From IMG/VR virus record IMGVR_UViG_2698536677_000012: 9,266 nt of DNA. One strand, 5' to 3'. The position numbers were made by a program, and so were the translations under genes. This DNA comes from a virus (taxonomy: Duplodnaviria > Heunggongvirae > Uroviricota > Caudoviricetes). Below, one piece after another: positions 1 through 6,067 of this stretch (positions within the stretch are counted from its first letter, which is position 1; each line of letters starts with the position of its first letter). Under the pieces are notes generated by a model. It had not been told where the DNA came from. It ran no database searches and saw only the letters and a list, made by a program, of their open reading frames with translations.

Positions 1-219
1 CAGATAAATATGGCTGCCATTTGTTATCACGTATTGGCGCTTATTGTTCGTTGATGCTGATTTTCTCGTCGCTTTTTTTTTGAGTAAGTTATATTAATTA
101 TAACAAATAATTTTCTGTGTTATTTTTTCAGGCTATCCCGTCAGAGGGGAAGCCTGTACTGCCGGGGAGCGAATGGAAAACTGATGTGTCCGGTAACTGC
201 GTGTTCTGTGAACACCATG

Positions 220-405
220 TTACTTAATTATGTAATTCATACCCGAACTCTCTGTTGACAGCCTTCTTCTGCAGGCTTCAATAACCCACGCTGAAAAGTT
301 TCCTGAACCTTTCAGATCAAGAGCGATGTTAATTTGTTCAATCATCTGGTTTGGAAATCGGATGTTGCGGGTTGTTGTTCTGCGGGTTCTGTTCTTTGAT
401 GACAT
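220..405 (-). CDS. Small (61 aa) putative ribbon-helix-helix (Arc/MetJ-like) DNA-binding protein; resembles the small DUF3950/YlcI-like proteins found next to the terminase genes of enterobacterial lambdoid prophages
   Basis: Complete ORF with ATG at 405..403 and TAA at 222..220. The basic N-terminus (KNRTRRTTTR) is followed by RNIRFPNQMIEQINIALDLKGSGNFSAWVIEACRRRL, which fits a beta-strand, helix, Gly turn, helix pattern as in Arc/CopG. It is on the opposite strand to the late genes, in an AT-rich region. The family assignment is from pattern and memory, not a search. Confidence 0.5.
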   Translation of the reverse strand: MSSKNRTRRTTTRNIRFPNQMIEQINIALDLKGSGNFSAWVIEACRRRLSTESSGMNYIIK

Positions 406-581
406 AATGTTTCCCCATATTCAGTGTTGCTGATTTGTATTATCTGAAGTTGCTTTTACGTTAATTTGACGCAGATCAATTAATACGATACCTGCGTCAT
501 AATTGATTATTTCTCGTGGTTTGATGGCGTACACACATGTTGTGATAAACCTTATATAGATGATAATCATTATCATTTCGT

Positions 582-588
582 GGGTCCT
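582..588 (+). other. cosQ: Candidate cosQ (packaging termination element) about 24-30 bp upstream of cosN
   Basis: The sequence gggtcct sits within tgggtcctttccggcgatccgaccggttacg, which closely matches the last ~30 bp of the lambda right end as I recall it. Exact cosQ boundaries are taken from memory of lambda. Confidence 0.4.
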
Positions 589-611
589 TTCCGGCGATCC
601 GACCGGTTACG

Positions 612-623
612 GGGCGGCGACCT
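612..623 (+). other. cosN: cosN: 12-nt cohesive-end sequence GGGCGGCGACCT (terminase nicking site)
   Basis: Exact match to the lambda 12-nt cohesive end gggcggcgacct. The flanks ggttacg | gggcggcgacct | cgcgg also match the lambda right-end/left-end junction. It lies ~180 bp upstream of Nu1, as in lambda. Confidence 0.85.
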
Positions 624-663
624 CGCGGTTTTTCACTATTTATGAAAATTTTTCAGGGAAAAT

Positions 664-775
664 CGTGTCGGTACTTCTCGAATATAACTTTTTGTTTTTC
701 TTTAATATTGCATCCGTAAAGGTCCGACATGAAAGTGTCCGAAAATGCCTTTTTCTGGCGTTTTCATGTCGGGCC
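664..775 (+). other. cosB: Candidate cosB: three Nu1-binding R-like elements (R3-like 664..680, inverted R2-like 721..734, R1-like 757..772) flanking an A/T-tract region (681..720) that could hold an IHF site
   Basis: cgtgtcggtacttctcg (664..680) and ggcgttttcatgtcg (757..772) resemble lambda R sites (cgtttccNttct). ggtccgacatgaaa (721..734) is the near-perfect inverted complement of tttcatgtcgggcc (762..775), mirroring the inverted R2/R1 pair of lambda. Site assignment is by analogy only. Confidence 0.4.
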
Positions 776-800: not shown

Positions 801-1349
801 ATGAAGGTTAATAAAAAGAGGCTTGCCGAAATTTTCAACGTGGACCCGCGGACGATTGAACGCTGGCAGTCTCAGGGACTCCCTTGCGCCTCCAAAGGTA
901 GTAAGGGCATTGAATCTGTATTTGATACTGCCATGGCAATTCAGTGGTATGCGCAGAGGGAAACTGATATCGAAAACGAAAAGCTCCGCAAAGAACTGGA
1001 CGATTTGCGTGCGGCAGCGGAGTCAGATTTACAACCCGGCACCATTGACTATGAACGCTACCGGCTCACAAAAGCGCAGGCAGATGCGCAGGAACTGAAA
1101 AATGCCCGTGAAGACGGAGTAGTGCTGGAAACTGAACTGTTTACCTTCATTCTACAACGTGTGGCACAGGAGATTTCGGGGATACTTGTGCGTGTGCCGT
1201 TGACATTACAGCGTAAATATCCGGACATTTCACCATCACACCTTGATGTGGTGAAAACTGAAATCGCGAAAGCCTCCAATGTTTCAGCTAAGGCCGGTGA
1301 AAACGTGGGCGGGTGGATCGATGATTTCAGACGCGCAGAAGGCAGCTAA
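801..1349 (+). CDS. nu1: Terminase small subunit (lambda gpNu1 homolog), 182 aa
   Basis: The N-terminus [28 protein letters not shown] parallels lambda MEVNKKQLADIFGASIRTIQNWQEQGMP (winged-HTH cosB-binding domain). [28 protein letters not shown] is nearly identical to the lambda equivalent. Length matches lambda (181 aa) and the 3' end overlaps the A start. Confidence 0.95.
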
Positions 1350-3249
1350 TGCAGCCGGTGCGATAGCTACAGGGCTTTTATCTCTCATTATTCCTGTTCC
1401 ACTGACGACAGTTCAGTGGGCCAATAAACATTATTACCTTCCTAAAGAGTCGTCTTATACCCCGGGGCGGTGGGAAACACTGCCGTTTCAGGTTGGCATC
1501 ATGAACTGTATGGGCAACGATCTGATTCGCACGGTTAACCTGATTAAATCTGCCCGTGTTGGTTATACAAAGATGTTGCTGGGAGTGGAGGCTTATTTTA
1601 TTGAGCATAAATCACGCAACAGCCTTCTTTTTCAGCCCACGGACTCAGCTGCTGAAGATTTTATGAAATCTCATGTTGAGCCAACGATAAGGGATGTTCC
1701 TGCATTGCTGGAGCTGGCTCCATGGTTCGGAAGAAAACACCGCGATAATACGCTCACCCTGAAGCGTTTTTCCTCCGGTGTGGGGTTCTGGTGTCTGGGT
1801 GGTGCGGCAGCAAAAAACTACCGTGAAAAATCCGTGGATGTGGTCTGTTATGACGAGCTTTCCTCGTTCGAACCGGATGTTGAAAAAGAGGGTTCGCCAA
1901 CCCTGCTGGGGGATAAACGTATTGAGGGCTCTGTATGGCCAAAATCCATTCGCGGCTCGACGCCTAAAATCAAAGGCTCCTGCCAGATCGAAAAAGCCGC
2001 TAACGAGTCGGCACACTTCATGCGTTTTTATGTGCCCTGTCCGCACTGTGGGGAGGAGCAGTATCTGAAATTTGGCGATGATGCCTCGCCTTTCGGTCTT
2101 AAGTGGGAGAAGAATAAGCCAGAAAGTGTTTTCTACCTTTGTGAGCATCATGGCTGTGTGATCCATCAGTCTGAGCTTGACCAGAGTAACGGGCGGTGGA
2201 TCTGTGAAAACACGGGCATGTGGACCCGTGACGGCCTGATGTTTTTCAGCGCCCGGGGTGATGAAATTCCGCCGCCGCGCTCCATCACTTTCCATATCTG
2301 GACGGCGTACAGTCCGTTCACCACCTGGGTACAGATTGTCTATGACTGGCTGGATGCACTGAAAGATCCCAACGGCCTGAAAACCTTTGTGAACACCACG
2401 CTGGGCGAGACCTGGGAAGAGGCTGTGGGCGAAAAACTCGATCACCAGGTACTGATGGATAAGGTTGTGCGTTACACGGCGGCGGTGCCTGCCCGGGTGG
2501 TTTATCTGACGGCGGGCATTGACTCGCAGCGAAACCGTTTTGAGATGTATGTCTGGGGATGGGCTCCGGGAGAGGAAGCCTTTCTGGTGGATAAAATCAT
2601 CATTATGGGGCGTCCCGATGAGGAAGAGACGCTGTTACGTGTGGATGCGGCGATCAACAAAAAATACCGCCATGCAGACGGAACCGAAATGACTATTTCC
2701 CGTGTCTGCTGGGACATCGGGGGGATCGATGGCGAAATCGTTTATCAGAGGTCAAAAAAACACGGTGTTTTCCGGGTGCTGCCGGTAAAAGGCGCATCTG
2801 TCTATGGCAAGCCGGTGATCACCATGCCAAAAACCCGCAATCAGCGGGGCGTGTATCTGTGTGAAGTGGGGACGGACACCGCAAAAGAAATTCTCTATGC
2901 CCGTATGAAAGCCGATCCCACGCCTGTGGATGAAGCCACGTCGTATGCCATCCGTTTTCCTGATGATCCGGAGATTTTTTCGCAGACAGAGGCGCAGCAA
3001 CTGGTCGCGGAAGAGCTTGTGGAGAAGTGGGAAAAAGGAAAGATGCGTCTGCTGTGGGATAACAAAAAGCGGCGTAACGAAGCGCTGGACTGCCTGGTGT
3101 ATGCCTACGCGGCATTACGTGTGTCCGTGCAACGCTGGCAGCTTGATCTGGCTGTACTGGCAAAATCCCGGGAAGAAGAGACGACCCGGCCAACCCTTAA
3201 AGAACTGGCAGCGAAGCTGTCCGGAGGAGTGAATGGTTACAGTCGCTGA
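1321..3249 (+). CDS. A: Terminase large subunit (lambda gpA homolog), ~642 aa
   Basis: Collinear with lambda gpA along its whole length (e.g. [83 protein letters not shown]). With the start at 1321 (MISDAQ vs lambda MNISNSQ) the Walker-A lysine of KSARVGYTK falls at codon 76, as in lambda. The track ORF begins at 1279, but 1321 gives the lambda-like 29-nt overlap with Nu1. Confidence 0.93.
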
Positions 3250-3439: not shown

Positions 3440-5028
3440 AACGAACGCCTGTCCTGATTGATGTGAACGGCGTTCCGCTTCGGGAGAGCCTCAGCTACAA
3501 CGGTGGCGGTGCAGGATTTGGCGGGCAAATGGCAGAGTGGTTGCCACCCTCGCAGAGTGCCGATGCGGCCCTGCTGCCTGCGTTGCGTCTGGGGAATGCC
3601 CGGGCAGATGATCTGGTGCGCAATAACGGAATAGCGGCCAATGCGGTGGCCCTGCATAAGGATCACATTGTCGGGCATATGTTTCTGATTAGCTACCGTC
3701 CGAACTGGCGCTGGCTGGGGATGCGGGAGACCGCGGCAAAAAGTTTTGTCGATGAGGTGGAGGCGGCCTGGTCAGAATACGCAGAAGGGATGTTTGGTGA
3801 GATCGACGTGGAAGGGAAACGCACGTTTACGGAATTTATCCGTGAAGGTGTGGGCGTTCATGCGTTTAACGGCGAAATCTTTGTGCAGCCGGTCTGGGAT
3901 ACGGAGAGTACGCAACTGTTTCGTACGCGTTTTAAAGCCGTGAGTCCGAAACGGGTGGACACGCCAGGACACGGTATCGGGAACCGTTTTCTGCGGGCCG
4001 GTGTGGAGGTCGATCGATATGGCCGTGCCGTTGCGTACCATATCTGTGAGGATGATTTTCCTCGCTCCGGGAATGGACGATGGGAACGGATCCCGCGTGA
4101 ACTACCCACCGGGCGTCCGGCCATGCTGCATATTTTCGAGCCGGTGGAGGACGGGCAGACCCGTGGAGCCAATCAGTTTTACAGCGTTATGGAACGGCTG
4201 AAGATGCTGGATTCCCTGCAGGCAACACAGCTTCAGTCGGCCATAGTGAAGGCGATGTATGCAGCGACGATTGAAAGTGACCTTGATACCGAAAAGGCCT
4301 TTGAATATATCGCCGGTGCGCCGCAGGGGCAGAAGGATAATCCGCTTATTAATATTCTGGATAAGTTCTCCACCTGGTATGACACGAATAGCGTGACGCT
4401 GGGCGGTGTCAAAATTCCGCACCTTTTCCCCGGTGATGATCTGAAACTTCAGACCGCGCAGGATTCAGACAATGGATTTTCTGCGCTTGAACAGGCGCTG
4501 CTGCGGTATATCGCCGCCGGTCTTGGCGTTTCCTACGAACAGTTGTCCCGTGATTACTCGAAGGTCAGTTACTCAAGTGCCCGCGCCTCCGCCAATGAGT
4601 CGTGGCGCTATTTTATGGGGCGGCGAAAATTTATTGCGGCCCGGCTGGCCACGCAGATGTTTTCCTGCTGGCTGGAAGAGGCACTTCTTCGGGGGATTAT
4701 TCGTCCGCCACGGGCACGTTTTGATTTTTATCAGGCGCGATCAGCCTGGTCACGGGCAGAGTGGATTGGTGCCGGAAGAATGGCCATTGACGGGCTCAAG
4801 GAAGTCCAGGAATCAGTGATGCGCATTGAGGCCGGACTGAGCACGTATGAGAAAGAGCTGGCGCTGATGGGCGAGGATTATCAGGACATTTTCCGCCAGC
4901 AGGTCAGGGAATCTGCTGAGCGGCAAAAAGCCGGACTCTCACGTCCGGTGTGGATAGCGCAGGCGTATCAGCAGCAGATAGCGGAGAGTCGCAGGCCGGA
5001 AGAGGAGACAACACCACGTGAGACGTAA
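3436..5028 (+). CDS. B: Portal protein (lambda gpB homolog), 530 aa
   Basis: 530 aa against lambda gpB 533 aa, in the same position after W. The start overlaps the W stop and the stop overlaps the GTG start of the downstream C-like reading frame. Confidence 0.93.
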   Translation: MKRTPVLIDVNGVPLRESLSYNGGGAGFGGQMAEWLPPSQSADAALLPALRLGNARADDLVRNNGIAANAVALHKDHIVGHMFLISYRPNWRWLGMRETAAKSFVDEVEAAWSEYAEGMFGEIDVEGKRTFTEFIREGVGVHAFNGEIFVQPVWDTESTQLFRTRFKAVSPKRVDTPGHGIGNRFLRAGVEVDRYGRAVAYHICEDDFPRSGNGRWERIPRELPTGRPAMLHIFEPVEDGQTRGANQFYSVMERLKMLDSLQATQLQSAIVKAMYAATIESDLDTEKAFEYIAGAPQGQKDNPLINILDKFSTWYDTNSVTLGGVKIPHLFPGDDLKLQTAQDSDNGFSALEQALLRYIAAGLGVSYEQLSRDYSKVSYSSARASANESWRYFMGRRKFIAARLATQMFSCWLEEALLRGIIRPPRARFDFYQARSAWSRAEWIGAGRMAIDGLKEVQESVMRIEAGLSTYEKELALMGEDYQDIFRQQVRESAERQKAGLSRPVWIAQAYQQQIAESRRPEEETTPRET

Positions 5029-5493: not shown

Positions 5494-6067
5494 NGCGCAG
5501 GATTCAGACAATGGATTTTCTGCGCTTGAACAGGCGCTGCTGCGGTATATCGCCGCCGGTCTTGGCGTTTCCTACGAACAGTTGTCCCGTGATTACTCGA
5601 AGGTCAGTTACTCAAGTGCCCGCGCCTCCGCCAATGAGTCGTGGCGCTATTTTATGGGGCGGCGAAAATTTATTGCGGCCCGGCTGGCCACGCAGATGTT
5701 TTCCTGCTGGCTGGAAGAGGCACTTCTTCGGGGGATTATTCGTCCGCCACGGGCACGTTTTGATTTTTATCAGGCGCGATCAGCCTGGTCACGGGCAGAG
5801 TGGATTGGTGCCGGAAGAATGGCCATTGACGGGCTCAAGGAAGTCCAGGAATCAGTGATGCGCATTGAGGCCGGACTGAGCACGTATGAGAAAGAGCTGG
5901 CGCTGATGGGCGAGGATTATCAGGACATTTTCCGCCAGCAGGTCAGGGAATCTGCTGAGCGGCAAAAAGCCGGACTCTCACGTCCGGTGTGGATAGCGCA
6001 GGCGTATCAGCAGCAGATAGCGGAGAGTCGCAGGCCGGAAGAGGAGACAACACCACGTGAGACGTAA
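5018..6067 (+). CDS. Chimeric ORF created by the tandem repeat: first 158 codons of protease C fused in frame, through codon acN (Thr), to the last 190 codons of portal B. Probable assembly artefact, otherwise a truncated fusion gene
   Basis: The track ORF of 349 aa starts with MRRNLSHIIAAVFNEPLLLEPAYARVFFCAL (lambda gpC N-terminus) and ends with the portal C-terminus, identical to 4456..5028. GTG start at 5018 overlapping the B stop. The N at 5494 falls in a codon whose meaning does not depend on N. Confidence 0.35.
   Translation: MRRNLSHIIAAVFNEPLLLEPAYARVFFCALGREMGAASLSVPQQQVQLDAPGMLAETDEYMAGGKRPARVYRVVNGIAVLPVTGTLVHRLGGMRPFSGMTGYDGIVACLQLAMADSQVRGVLLDIDSPGGQAAGAFDCADMIYRLRQQKPVWALCNDXAQDSDNGFSALEQALLRYIAAGLGVSYEQLSRDYSKVSYSSARASANESWRYFMGRRKFIAARLATQMFSCWLEEALLRGIIRPPRARFDFYQARSAWSRAEWIGAGRMAIDGLKEVQESVMRIEAGLSTYEKELALMGEDYQDIFRQQVRESAERQKAGLSRPVWIAQAYQQQIAESRRPEEETTPRET

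What the first reader, a model, noticed from the sequence alone, without database searches (positions are those of the whole stretch)
220..405. Divergently oriented small RHH-like gene right next to cos
A 61-aa ORF on the minus strand, with a basic N-terminal tail and a strand-helix-turn-helix pattern typical of Arc/MetJ/CopG regulators, sits in an AT-rich region 200 bp from cosN. No partner ORF of 60 aa or more lies downstream of it in 1..219, so a classical two-gene toxin-antitoxin pair is not evident. Possible roles are a transcriptional regulator or a moron gene at the genome end. It is the only gene in the window outside the conserved head module.
Basis: partly seen in the sequence, partly recalled or inferred. 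Interest (0 to 1): 0.45.

Follow-up and report, generated by a model that had tools for sequence, protein, structure and literature searches.

The report
YlcI/YnfO small gene beside cos
The 61-codon reverse-strand gene next to the phage packaging site is a real, strongly conserved copy of the very common but uncharacterised YlcI/YnfO (DUF3950) prophage family, most likely a small Arc-like DNA-binding regulator made by the resting prophage; it is ordinary as a sighting, though nobody yet knows what the family does.

Summary
ORF 220..405 (-) encodes 61 aa, and its ATG lies 206 bp from the cosN nick of a phage-21/lambda-type cos. The region is AT-rich and has no partner gene.

It is a known family: Pfam DUF3950 (E 9e-19) and NCBIfam YlcI/YnfO. 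RefSeq annotates it as such, and its core occurs in 4174 of 5426 complete E. coli genomes. Phage lambda carries it at the same spot.

It is protein-coding. dN/dS against lambda is 0.05, with mismatches of 4/1/17 by codon position.

The RHH reading is consistent but unproven:
- AlphaFold gives an extended basic N-terminus plus two helices.
- The N-I-R-F-P strand aligns in register with Arc's N-L-R-W-P (about 0.001 by shuffling).
- hhalign is weak, and Foldseek and PDB sequence searches find nothing.

The strongest functional evidence is indirect. Homologues in PICI-like satellites are divergently transcribed from the main operon. They sit behind arrays of 2-4 palindromic sites whose centres co-vary with residues just before I-R-F. 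No such operator was found for the lambdoid copy.

Best reading: a lysogen-expressed Arc-like regulator or moron with an unknown target. The gene itself is already known; interest is modest.

The parts
220..405 (-). YlcI/YnfO (DUF3950) gene, 61 aa. Codons 1-50 (256-405) are the conserved core; codons 51-61 (223-255) are a variable tail; the stop TAA is at 220-222.
   Evidence: ORF. Pfam PF13132 67.5 bits against cut-off 25. NCBIfam NF041551 35.2 against 30. PHROG 949. dN/dS 0.05 against lambda. Codon-position mismatches 4/1/17. C-terminal tails differ among homologues.
355..369 (-). Codons 13-17 (R-N-I-R-F): predicted DNA-reading beta-strand of the ribbon. P18 follows and completes the N-I-R-F-P motif.
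   Evidence: I15, R16 and F17 are invariant or nearly so. They align with Arc N11-L-R-W-P15. The segment is extended in the AF2 model.
406..420 (-). Translation initiation region. The GGGG Shine-Dalgarno-like run is at 413-416.
   Evidence: Read from the sequence.
424..528 (.). Conserved non-coding block upstream of the gene, presumed to be its promoter/leader/regulatory region. It holds interleaved inverted repeats: TGACGCAG 467-474 with CTGCGTCA 492-499, and ATCAATTA 475-482 with TAATTGAT 500-507.
   Evidence: 98 of 105 positions are identical to lambda, with mismatches spread 3/2/2 over the codon positions of the overlapping 51-aa ORF, so it is not coding. Third positions of the gene are only 33/50 identical. 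Repeats. No sigma-70 consensus match on the minus strand.
201..215 (.). Perfect 6-3-6 palindrome GTGTTCTGTGAACAC, 5 nt after the stop codon. Probably a transcript-end stem-loop; it has no U-run on the gene strand.
   Evidence: It always travels with the 61-aa variant, as a single copy.
560..576 (.). AT-rich palindrome ATGATAAT-c-ATTATCAT just left of cosQ. Function unknown.
   Evidence: conserved in lambda.
582..588 (+). cosQ (GGGTCCT).
   Evidence: Sequence identical to lambda in the alignment. The identification as cosQ rests on established lambda knowledge.
612..623 (+). cosN cohesive-end sequence GGGCGGCGACCT.
   Evidence: established lambda knowledge.
801..1349 (+). Nu1-type small terminase, divergent neighbour of the gene across cos.
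   Evidence: annotated as terminase small subunit in S88.

Best explanation
The ORF encodes a member of the YlcI/YnfO (DUF3950) family.

**Proposed protein (inferred).** A roughly 50-residue ribbon-helix-helix-type module forms a dimer. Two copies of the strand R-N-I-R-F pair into a ribbon that reads the DNA major groove. A basic N-terminal arm adds backbone contacts, and a variable C-terminal tail follows.

**Proposed expression (inferred from orientation, plus K-12 RNA-seq for the DLP12 copy).** The gene lies antisense to the late operon, between the lysis/moron region and the packaging module. It would be transcribed from its own promoter in the conserved block 424-528 while the prophage is quiescent. 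It would then be silenced by head-on late transcription after induction.

**Proposed role.** It acts as a small sequence-specific transcriptional regulator. Its target in lambdoid phages is not identified.

**What is shown.**
- It is a real coding gene under purifying selection.
- Family membership is established.
- Its position is constant in lambdoid phages.
- Satellite homologues have switch-like operator architecture.

**What is inferred.** The RHH fold, dimerisation, DNA binding by this copy, and expression in the lysogen.
For: **Family.**

**Coding and selection.**

**The conserved core is the selected unit.**
- Lambda shares window 271-705.
- Phage PPyecE_EH1910, which has a different terminase, shares 1-405.
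- The overlap is codons 1-45.

**Constant position, divergent from the first packaging gene.** This holds with both Nu1/cos and HNH-TerS-TerL modules.

**Fold.**
- AF2 gives an extended 1-18, helix 19-32, a loop containing the NFS motif, and helix 39-55.
- hhalign places residues 8-33 on Arc 5-30.
- The best ungapped profile-profile register is query 14-33 = Arc 11-30, reached by 2 of 2000 column shuffles.
- Weak PHROG hits are all to RHH-type families: HicB-like, Arc-like repressor, transcriptional repressor.

**DNA binding in the family.**
- In cf-PICI/PICI-like islands, the DUF3950 gene is the only opposite-strand gene within the island's own int-to-terminase module. It is divergent from the replication/packaging operon.
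- Two GGTACGTACC palindromes 33 bp apart are conserved in five genera while the DNA between them varies.
- A third subfamily has 2-4 GTG-N6-CAC sites at about -100, -77 and -30. Their centres match within a locus, differ between loci, and track the residues before I-R-F.

**Expression.** ybcW-ylcI is listed as a convergent excludon detected in at least 50% of K-12 RNA-seq samples (PMC12288877).
Against: - No significant match to any solved or predicted RHH structure or PDB sequence.
- hhalign probability is only 2-3%.
- The model pLDDT is 69, and DSSP calls no strand in the monomer.
- No sigma-70 consensus promoter on the gene strand.
- No operator-like array is shared by the two lambdoid contexts.
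- L003 and L053 differ at the specificity position (I against T) yet have identical upstream DNA. If this copy binds DNA, its site is therefore elsewhere.
- The operator/protein co-variation in satellites could partly reflect shared ancestry, and another nearby regulator could be the binder.
- No functional study of the family was found.
Confidence: 0.55

Rival explanations
1. Packaging accessory factor. The protein binds DNA near cos (for example the conserved block or the palindrome beside cosQ) or binds terminase, and modulates cos cleavage or termination. One version would keep terminase from cutting the prophage cos in situ.
For: - The gene always abuts the packaging module, with two unrelated terminase types.
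- The block 424-581 next to cosQ is more conserved than synonymous sites.
- One metagenomic homologue (P0207) is fused to the N-terminal DNA-binding part of a Terminase_2 small subunit.
Against: - The gene is on the strand opposite to the late operon that expresses the packaging genes.
- In HNH-type phages it is separated from cos by the HNH gene.
- In satellites it sits at the int/alpA-replication switch, kilobases from the terminase genes.
- In L157 it lies among cargo genes.
- From established knowledge, lambda packaging in vitro needs only terminase, IHF and gpFI, and minimal cos is cosQ-cosN-cosB.
Confidence: 0.12
2. Orphan antitoxin, or a component of a toxin-antitoxin or defence system whose partner lies elsewhere.
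For: - The RHH-like pattern.
- Weak PHROG hits to the HicB-like antitoxin family (E 0.005-0.012).
- In one Enterobacter island, a co-oriented DUF3800 gene follows it.
Against: - There is no co-oriented neighbour in the window, S88, lambda, K-12 or Stx phages.
- PADLOC has no match.
- Downstream neighbours vary.
Confidence: 0.05
3. Cross-talk between phage and satellite. The phage copy is a paralogue of the satellite repressor. It would act on satellites, either by binding their operators to keep them silent or by forming mixed dimers that derepress them.
For: - The same family is encoded by lambdoid helper-type phages and by PICI/cf-PICI-like satellites of the same hosts.
- The satellite copies look like switch repressors.
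- The papers searched describe only AlpA as the regulator of these PICIs and name no repressor.
Against: - Strand residues differ: TRN in the phage type against KKN or xKG in satellites.
- No satellite-type site occurs in the window beyond chance.
- The antisense orientation argues for expression in the lysogen, not during induction.
- The idea is purely inferential.
Confidence: 0.1
4. The ORF is incidental. The conservation would reflect cis-acting DNA or an antisense RNA next to cos, not a protein.
For: - The adjacent non-coding block is highly conserved.
- The gene is missing from many lambda records.
Against: - Mismatches against lambda fall 4/1/17 on codon positions, and dN/dS is 0.02-0.22 across the divergent homologue pairs (dS of 0.2 or more).
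- The ORF core recurs with unrelated flanks on either side.
- Homologues at 35-45% identity keep the motif in other genera.
Confidence: 0.03

Closest known systems
YlcI (DLP12) and YnfO (Qin) of E. coli K-12; Pfam DUF3950 (PF13132); NCBIfam NF041551
   Same: The first 50 residues are about 90% identical. They share the NFS motif and the same place and orientation between ybcW/bor-type morons and cos plus the Nu1-like gene. This exact protein is annotated as YlcI/YnfO family in RefSeq.
   Different: Only the last 11 residues and the downstream DNA differ (mosaic junction near codon 45-50). No function is known for any member.
Unannotated lambda ORF, complement(48110..48304) in lambda coordinates
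   Same: 64 aa, 81% identical over residues 1-59 and 90% over the core 1-52. It has the same upstream block, cosQ and cosN.
   Different: It has a different C-terminal tail and a different downstream neighbour (ybcW-like). Many lambda records carry no CDS there.
Arc and Mnt repressors of phage P22 (Pfam Arc, PF03869)
   Same: Similar size. The strand motif N-[IL]-R-[FW]-P is followed by two helices, with a Gly in the loop at the same ungapped register. Both are small phage-encoded proteins.
   Different: There is no significant profile or structural match. The helix B motif is NFSxWV with an invariant Cys. Arc and Mnt sit in the immI region and control ant; this gene sits beside cos and has no known target.
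Divergently transcribed master repressors of satellites and phages (SaPI Stl, cI/Cro-type switches)
   Same: Satellite DUF3950 genes are divergent from the main operon. Repeated operators overlap both promoters.
   Different: DUF3950 proteins are much smaller, about 60 aa. They are unrelated in sequence and are not shown experimentally to repress. The copy in this window has no such divergent promoter/operator array.
bor and lom-type morons of lambda
   Same: The gene lies antisense within the late region, is AT-rich, and is presumed to be expressed from the prophage. That bor and lom are expressed in lysogens is stated in PMC7067206.
   Different: It is not a membrane or virulence protein. 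The promoter and terminator are not identified.

Membership tests
DUF3950 / YlcI-YnfO | Match to Pfam PF13132 above the gathering score | tested here: met
   67.5 bits against 25, E 9.2e-19, residues 21-49.
DUF3950 / YlcI-YnfO | Match to NCBIfam NF041551 above its cut-off | tested here: met
   35.2 bits against 30, residues 10-47.
DUF3950 / YlcI-YnfO | Conserved I-R-F and N-F-S-x-W-V-x-x-A-C motifs in a protein of about 50-80 aa | tested here: met
   I15, R16, I25, F37, V41 and C45 are invariant. F17, S38, W40 and A44 are conserved in at least 90% of 34 diverse members.
DUF3950 / YlcI-YnfO | Encoded in prophages or satellites of Enterobacterales | tested here: met
Ribbon-helix-helix (Arc/MetJ/CopG superfamily) | Beta-strand, helix A, short loop, helix B topology | tested here: inconclusive
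   AF2 monomer gives an extended 1-18, helices 19-32 and 39-55, and pLDDT 69. The strand cannot be called without the partner chain.
Ribbon-helix-helix (Arc/MetJ/CopG superfamily) | Significant sequence-profile similarity to a known RHH family | tested here: inconclusive
   hhalign against an Arc profile gives E 0.019 and probability 2.4%, in the right register. An ungapped profile test gives 2 of 2000 shuffles. Pfam shows no RHH family. PHROG hits are weak.
Ribbon-helix-helix (Arc/MetJ/CopG superfamily) | Structural similarity to solved RHH proteins | tested here: not met
   Foldseek against PDB gives 0 matches. The best BFVD hit is NikA at E 4, not significant. The test is weak for a 61-residue monomer of moderate confidence.
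Ribbon-helix-helix (Arc/MetJ/CopG superfamily) | Obligate dimer with an intermolecular ribbon | not testable with these tools
   Only single-chain prediction of window or database sequences is offered.
Ribbon-helix-helix (Arc/MetJ/CopG superfamily) | Binds repeated or palindromic operator sites | tested here: inconclusive
   Arrays lie next to satellite homologues and co-vary with strand residues. None was found for the lambdoid copy.
Type II toxin-antitoxin (RHH antitoxin) | Co-transcribed toxin gene adjacent to the antitoxin | tested here: not met
   No co-oriented ORF of 30 aa or more is adjacent in the window. There is none in S88, lambda, K-12 or Stx phages. PADLOC has no hit.
Moron (lysogeny-expressed accessory gene) | Independent transcription unit with its own promoter and terminator inside a phage operon, expressed from the prophage | tested here: inconclusive
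   Opposite orientation and low GC are met. No consensus promoter or terminator lies on the gene strand. Transcription of K-12 ylcI is reported (PMC12288877).

The most novel reading that the evidence does not exclude
DUF3950 proteins are a family of Arc-like immunity-type repressors. In PICI, cf-PICI and P4-like satellites of Enterobacterales they would be the so-far-undescribed master repressor, with locus-specific operator specificities. The copy kept beside cos in lambda, phage 21, Stx phages and most E. coli genomes would be a prophage-expressed paralogue. It would act in trans, either on satellites or other prophages, or on cos-proximal DNA to prevent untimely terminase action on the integrated cos.
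Probability: 0.15. Interest if true: 0.7.

Novelty: already known. Interest (0 to 1): 0.3.

Why it matters
As a sighting it adds nothing new. The gene is annotated as a YlcI/YnfO family protein in thousands of E. coli genomes.

The family is nevertheless one of the most widespread uncharacterised prophage genes. It is present even in phage lambda, where many records do not annotate it.

The comparative evidence gathered here makes a concrete hypothesis testable: the family are small sequence-specific repressors. That evidence comprises:
- the Arc-like strand motif;
- switch-like operator arrays in satellites that co-vary with strand residues;
- the gene being the lone antisense gene in otherwise one-directional operons.

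If confirmed, this would add a regulatory protein to lambda's gene list. It might also identify a repressor for Gram-negative PICI-type satellites, for which the papers searched describe only AlpA.

Tried and rejected
- **PDB sequence searches.** phmmer and a profile search found only a chance ribosomal-protein hit, or nothing.
- **Foldseek on the AF2 model.** Nothing in PDB and nothing significant in BFVD.
- **hhalign.** Arc and Mnt gave weak alignments in the right register; CopG gave nothing.
- **Rfam over 1-1000.** Only sub-threshold chance hits.
- **Sigma-70 and terminator scan.** Nothing on the gene strand.
- **Operator search for the lambdoid subfamily.** No k-mers were shared between the Nu1/cos and HNH contexts, no conserved palindromes were found, and the satellite motif GGTACGTACC does not occur in the window beyond chance. 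GGTAnnTACC upstream of the holin gene in three related phages is one homologous occurrence and within chance expectation. The palindrome at 201-215 is single-copy.
- **The 51-aa ORF at 421..576 (-).** Rejected as a gene, because mismatches against lambda are spread evenly over codon positions.
- **Toxin-antitoxin reading.** Rejected for lack of any partner.
- **Literature.** No functional study of YlcI, YnfO or DUF3950 was found. The lambda ribosome-profiling paper is not held.
- **Distant phage context L157.** The gene lies among cargo genes (a TonB-dependent receptor and UmuDC), so adjacency to packaging genes is not universal.

Full report
**Observation.** The window starts in the right arm of a lambdoid prophage and runs across cos into the head genes.
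- The sequence shows cosQ (GGGTCCT, 582-588) and the 12-nt cohesive end GGGCGGCGACCT (612-623).
- A Nu1-type small terminase lies at 801..1349 and the large terminase at 1279..3249.
- The first 800 bases are 99.5-99.9% identical to prophages of E. coli S88, O104:H4 and other strains.
- ORF 220..405 on the minus strand encodes 61 residues with a basic N-terminal arm. A GGGG ribosome-binding run lies 7 nt before its ATG, and the ATG is 206 bp from the cosN nick.
- The 200-base windows spanning 1-800 have 36.5-43.5% GC, against 43.5-52.5% from 801 to 2000 in the head genes.
- Nothing of 30 codons or more follows the ORF on its strand.
- In the S88 prophage it is the only minus-strand gene in 12.8 kb.

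The one correction is that the last 86 bases of a 46-aa plus-strand hypothetical gene also lie at the left edge.

**Is it a gene?** Yes.
- Against lambda, the first 50 codons differ at 22 aligned positions, distributed 4/1/17 over codon positions 1/2/3.
- Nei-Gojobori dN/dS is 0.05 against lambda, and 0.02-0.22 across the divergent homologue pairs, meaning those with dS of 0.2 or more.
- Lambda shares window 271-705, from the gene's 5' two-thirds through cos.
- Phage PPyecE_EH1910 has an HNH/HK97-type packaging module. It shares window 1-405, which is the gene and its downstream DNA.
- The only segment common to both is codons 1-45, the conserved protein core. Homologues carry unrelated C-terminal tails after about residue 50.

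**What family?**
- Pfam DUF3950 scores 67.5 bits against a cut-off of 25.
- NCBIfam YlcI_YnfO_N is above its cut-off.
- PHROG 949 has unknown function.
- RefSeq annotates this very protein (WP_001329960.1) as a YlcI/YnfO family protein.
- The gene's core is found in 4174 of 5426 complete E. coli genomes, with up to 12 copies per genome.
- It occurs in 155 phage records, including lambda, 434, HK629/630 and Stx1/Stx2 phages. K-12 has ylcI in DLP12 at the equivalent place, ybcW - ylcI - cos - nohD.
- Lambda has a 64-codon homologue at complement(48110..48304) in lambda coordinates (L002 2941..3135). Many lambda-type records carry no feature there.
- The family is narrow. An exhaustive phmmer search of 1.84 billion representatives finds 106 clusters, many of them noisy copies of the lambda sequence.

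**Fold.**
- AlphaFold2, on a 25-sequence alignment spanning 35-93% identity, gives an extended segment 1-18, helix 19-32, a loop with the family's NFS motif, and helix 39-55. Mean pLDDT is 69.
- This is what an RHH monomer looks like without its partner strand, but DSSP calls no strand.
- Foldseek finds nothing in PDB and nothing significant in BFVD; the best hit is the RHH protein NikA at E 4.
- Sequence and profile searches of PDB find nothing.
- The motif N14-I-R-F-P18 resembles Arc's N11-L-R-W-P15. hhalign aligns residues 8-33 with Arc 5-30 in that register, but at E 0.019 and probability 2.4%.
- In my own test, the best ungapped profile-profile segment is query 14-33 = Arc 11-30. It scores 23.0 against 11.7 +/- 2.2 for column shuffles, and 2 of 2000 shuffles reach it.
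- Weak PHROG hits of family members go to HicB-like, 'transcriptional repressor' and 'Arc-like repressor' families.

The RHH reading is therefore consistent and modestly supported, not proven.

**Context in phages.** The gene is always divergent from the first gene of the packaging module.
- With Nu1-type terminases, it is separated from that gene by about 390 bp containing cos (window, lambda, DLP12).
- With HNH-TerS-TerL modules, it is separated by only 41 bp.
- In every phage case it is antisense to the late operon.
- K-12 RNA-seq lists ybcW-ylcI as a convergent excludon seen in at least half of the samples, so the DLP12 copy is transcribed (PMC12288877).
- The block 424-528 upstream of the gene is 93% identical to lambda with no codon-position bias. 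It is more conserved than the gene's third positions (66%), so it is constrained non-coding DNA. The 51-codon ORF overlapping it is not a gene.
- The block contains interleaved inverted repeats at 467-507.
- No consensus promoter was found on the gene strand.

**Context in satellites, the main functional lead.** Homologues at 35-45% identity occur in islands with integrase, AlpA and a D5-type or DUF927-type primase. In E. coli, these islands also carry a full capsid/portal/HNH/TerS/TerL module of cf-PICI type.

- **Orientation.** In these islands the DUF3950 gene is the only opposite-strand gene within the island's own int-to-terminase module. It is divergent from the replication/packaging operon across about 135 bp.
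- **First satellite subfamily.** Two copies of the palindrome GGTACGTACC, 33 bp apart, lie just upstream of the ATG. They are conserved in Escherichia, Xenorhabdus, Enterobacter, Pantoea and Serratia, while the DNA between them varies.
- **Second satellite subfamily.** Its strand reads xK[GNHY]-I-R-F-P-H, and 2-4 sites of the form GTG-N6-CAC lie at about -100, -77 and -30.
  - Read by eye, the site at -77 sits in the spacer of a TTGACG/-10 promoter on the opposite strand.
  - On the same reading, the site at -30 directly follows a TATAGT-like hexamer on the gene strand.
- **Co-variation.** The six central bases are the same within a locus and differ between loci. They track the residues before I-R-F:

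| Residues before I-R-F | Site |
|---|---|
| YKG | GTGTTTAAACAC |
| TTKG | GTG[CT]A[TC]A[AT]ACAC |
| ATKG | GTGTT[AG]GGGCAC |
| AKKH | GTGTG[ACT]ACCCAC |

This is the architecture of an autoregulated switch repressor whose recognition strand specifies the operator. The caveats are shared ancestry of protein and sites, and the possibility of another binder. The papers searched describe only AlpA as the regulator of these PICIs and mention no repressor.

**Back to the window.** No comparable array was found for the lambdoid subfamily.
- The Nu1/cos and HNH contexts share no motif upstream.
- Satellite-type sites are not present beyond chance.
- L003 and L053 differ at the putative specificity position yet have identical upstream DNA.
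- The 15-bp palindrome 5 nt after the stop codon is single-copy and travels with the 61-aa variant. It is probably a transcript-end stem-loop.

If this copy binds DNA, its target remains unknown.

**Explanations.**

| Reading | Confidence | Main points |
|---|---|---|
| Arc-like RHH regulator made from the prophage strand and shut off by head-on late transcription; target unknown | 0.55 | Best supported overall |
| cos/packaging accessory role | 0.12 | Supported by position and a single DUF3950-Terminase_2 fusion; opposed by orientation, by satellite and cargo contexts and by what is known of lambda packaging |
| Cross-talk with satellites | 0.10 | Purely inferential |
| Orphan antitoxin | 0.05 | No partner; no PADLOC hit |
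| Non-coding artefact | 0.03 | Contradicted by the codon-position pattern |

**Novelty and score.** The finding is an already-annotated member of a known family of unknown function, in its usual place. Interest is 0.3: ordinary as a discovery. The family's ubiquity, its presence in lambda, and the satellite operator evidence make a cheap, well-defined experiment worthwhile.

Noticed in passing
L002 2941-3135 (-), which is lambda complement(48110..48304): Phage lambda itself carries a 64-codon YlcI/YnfO homologue 198 bp from its right end. Several lambda-type records (HK629, HK630, DE3 and others) have no CDS there, and others call it a hypothetical protein.
   Followed up: yes
L007, L009, L011, L014, L018 and about 30 other loci: Contigs of about 3.5 kb are filed under unrelated organisms: Kitasatospora, Cohnella, Brevibacillus 'plasmid', Arcanobacterium hippocoleae 'plasmid unnamed1', Aeromicrobium and others. 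Four of the five contigs checked are 99.8-100% identical to the right end of lambda; the fifth (L007, 2.6 kb) is 98.9%. They look like sequencing-control lambda DNA left in assemblies. The same source probably explains the many frameshifted 'ena' variants of the protein.
   Followed up: partly
window 424-528: This non-coding block between the gene and cosQ is 93% identical to lambda with no codon-position bias. It is more conserved than the gene's synonymous positions. It contains interleaved inverted repeats: TGACGCAG/CTGCGTCA and ATCAATTA/TAATTGAT, each pair 17 nt apart. Its function is unknown. The overlapping 51-aa ORF 421..576 (-) is not coding.
   Followed up: partly
L054 8957-8999; L046 3915-3957; L056-L059 2957-2999: In PICI/cf-PICI-like islands of five genera, two GGTACGTACC palindromes 33 bp apart precede the DUF3950 gene. 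That gene is the only opposite-strand gene within the island's own int-to-terminase module. L054 and L055 have a third copy downstream of the primase gene (5734-5743).
   Followed up: yes
L140-L166, 150 nt upstream of position 4001: A further DUF3950 subfamily in int/AlpA islands has 2-4 GTG-N6-CAC sites at about -100, -77 and -30. Their central bases differ between loci and track the residues just before I-R-F in the protein. This suggests many 'immunity' specificities.
   Followed up: partly
protein P0207: A 129-aa metagenomic protein joins a DUF3950 domain to the first 50 positions of the Terminase_2 small-terminase model, its DNA-binding end. There is only one representative, so it could be a gene-call artefact.
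   Followed up: partly
window 560-576: The AT-rich palindrome ATGATAAT-c-ATTATCAT ends 5 nt left of cosQ and is conserved in lambda. A plus-strand promoter-like match (TTGTGA-16-GATAAT, 540-567) overlaps it in the window. Lambda lacks 7 nt of the spacer, so a promoter is unlikely.
   Followed up: partly
L044 3950-4200: A decayed, frameshifted copy of the gene lies next to a Nu1 remnant in a defective prophage of E. coli ECGI0523. This shows that copies do erode in cryptic prophages.
   Followed up: no
L050 4853-5011 (Pasteurella phage Pmp7): A weak tblastn match (36% identity, E 5e-5) lies on the strand opposite to an annotated 'transcriptional repressor' in a 10.7-kb satellite-like element with integrase, primase and terminase. 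It is unclear which strand is the real gene.
   Followed up: no
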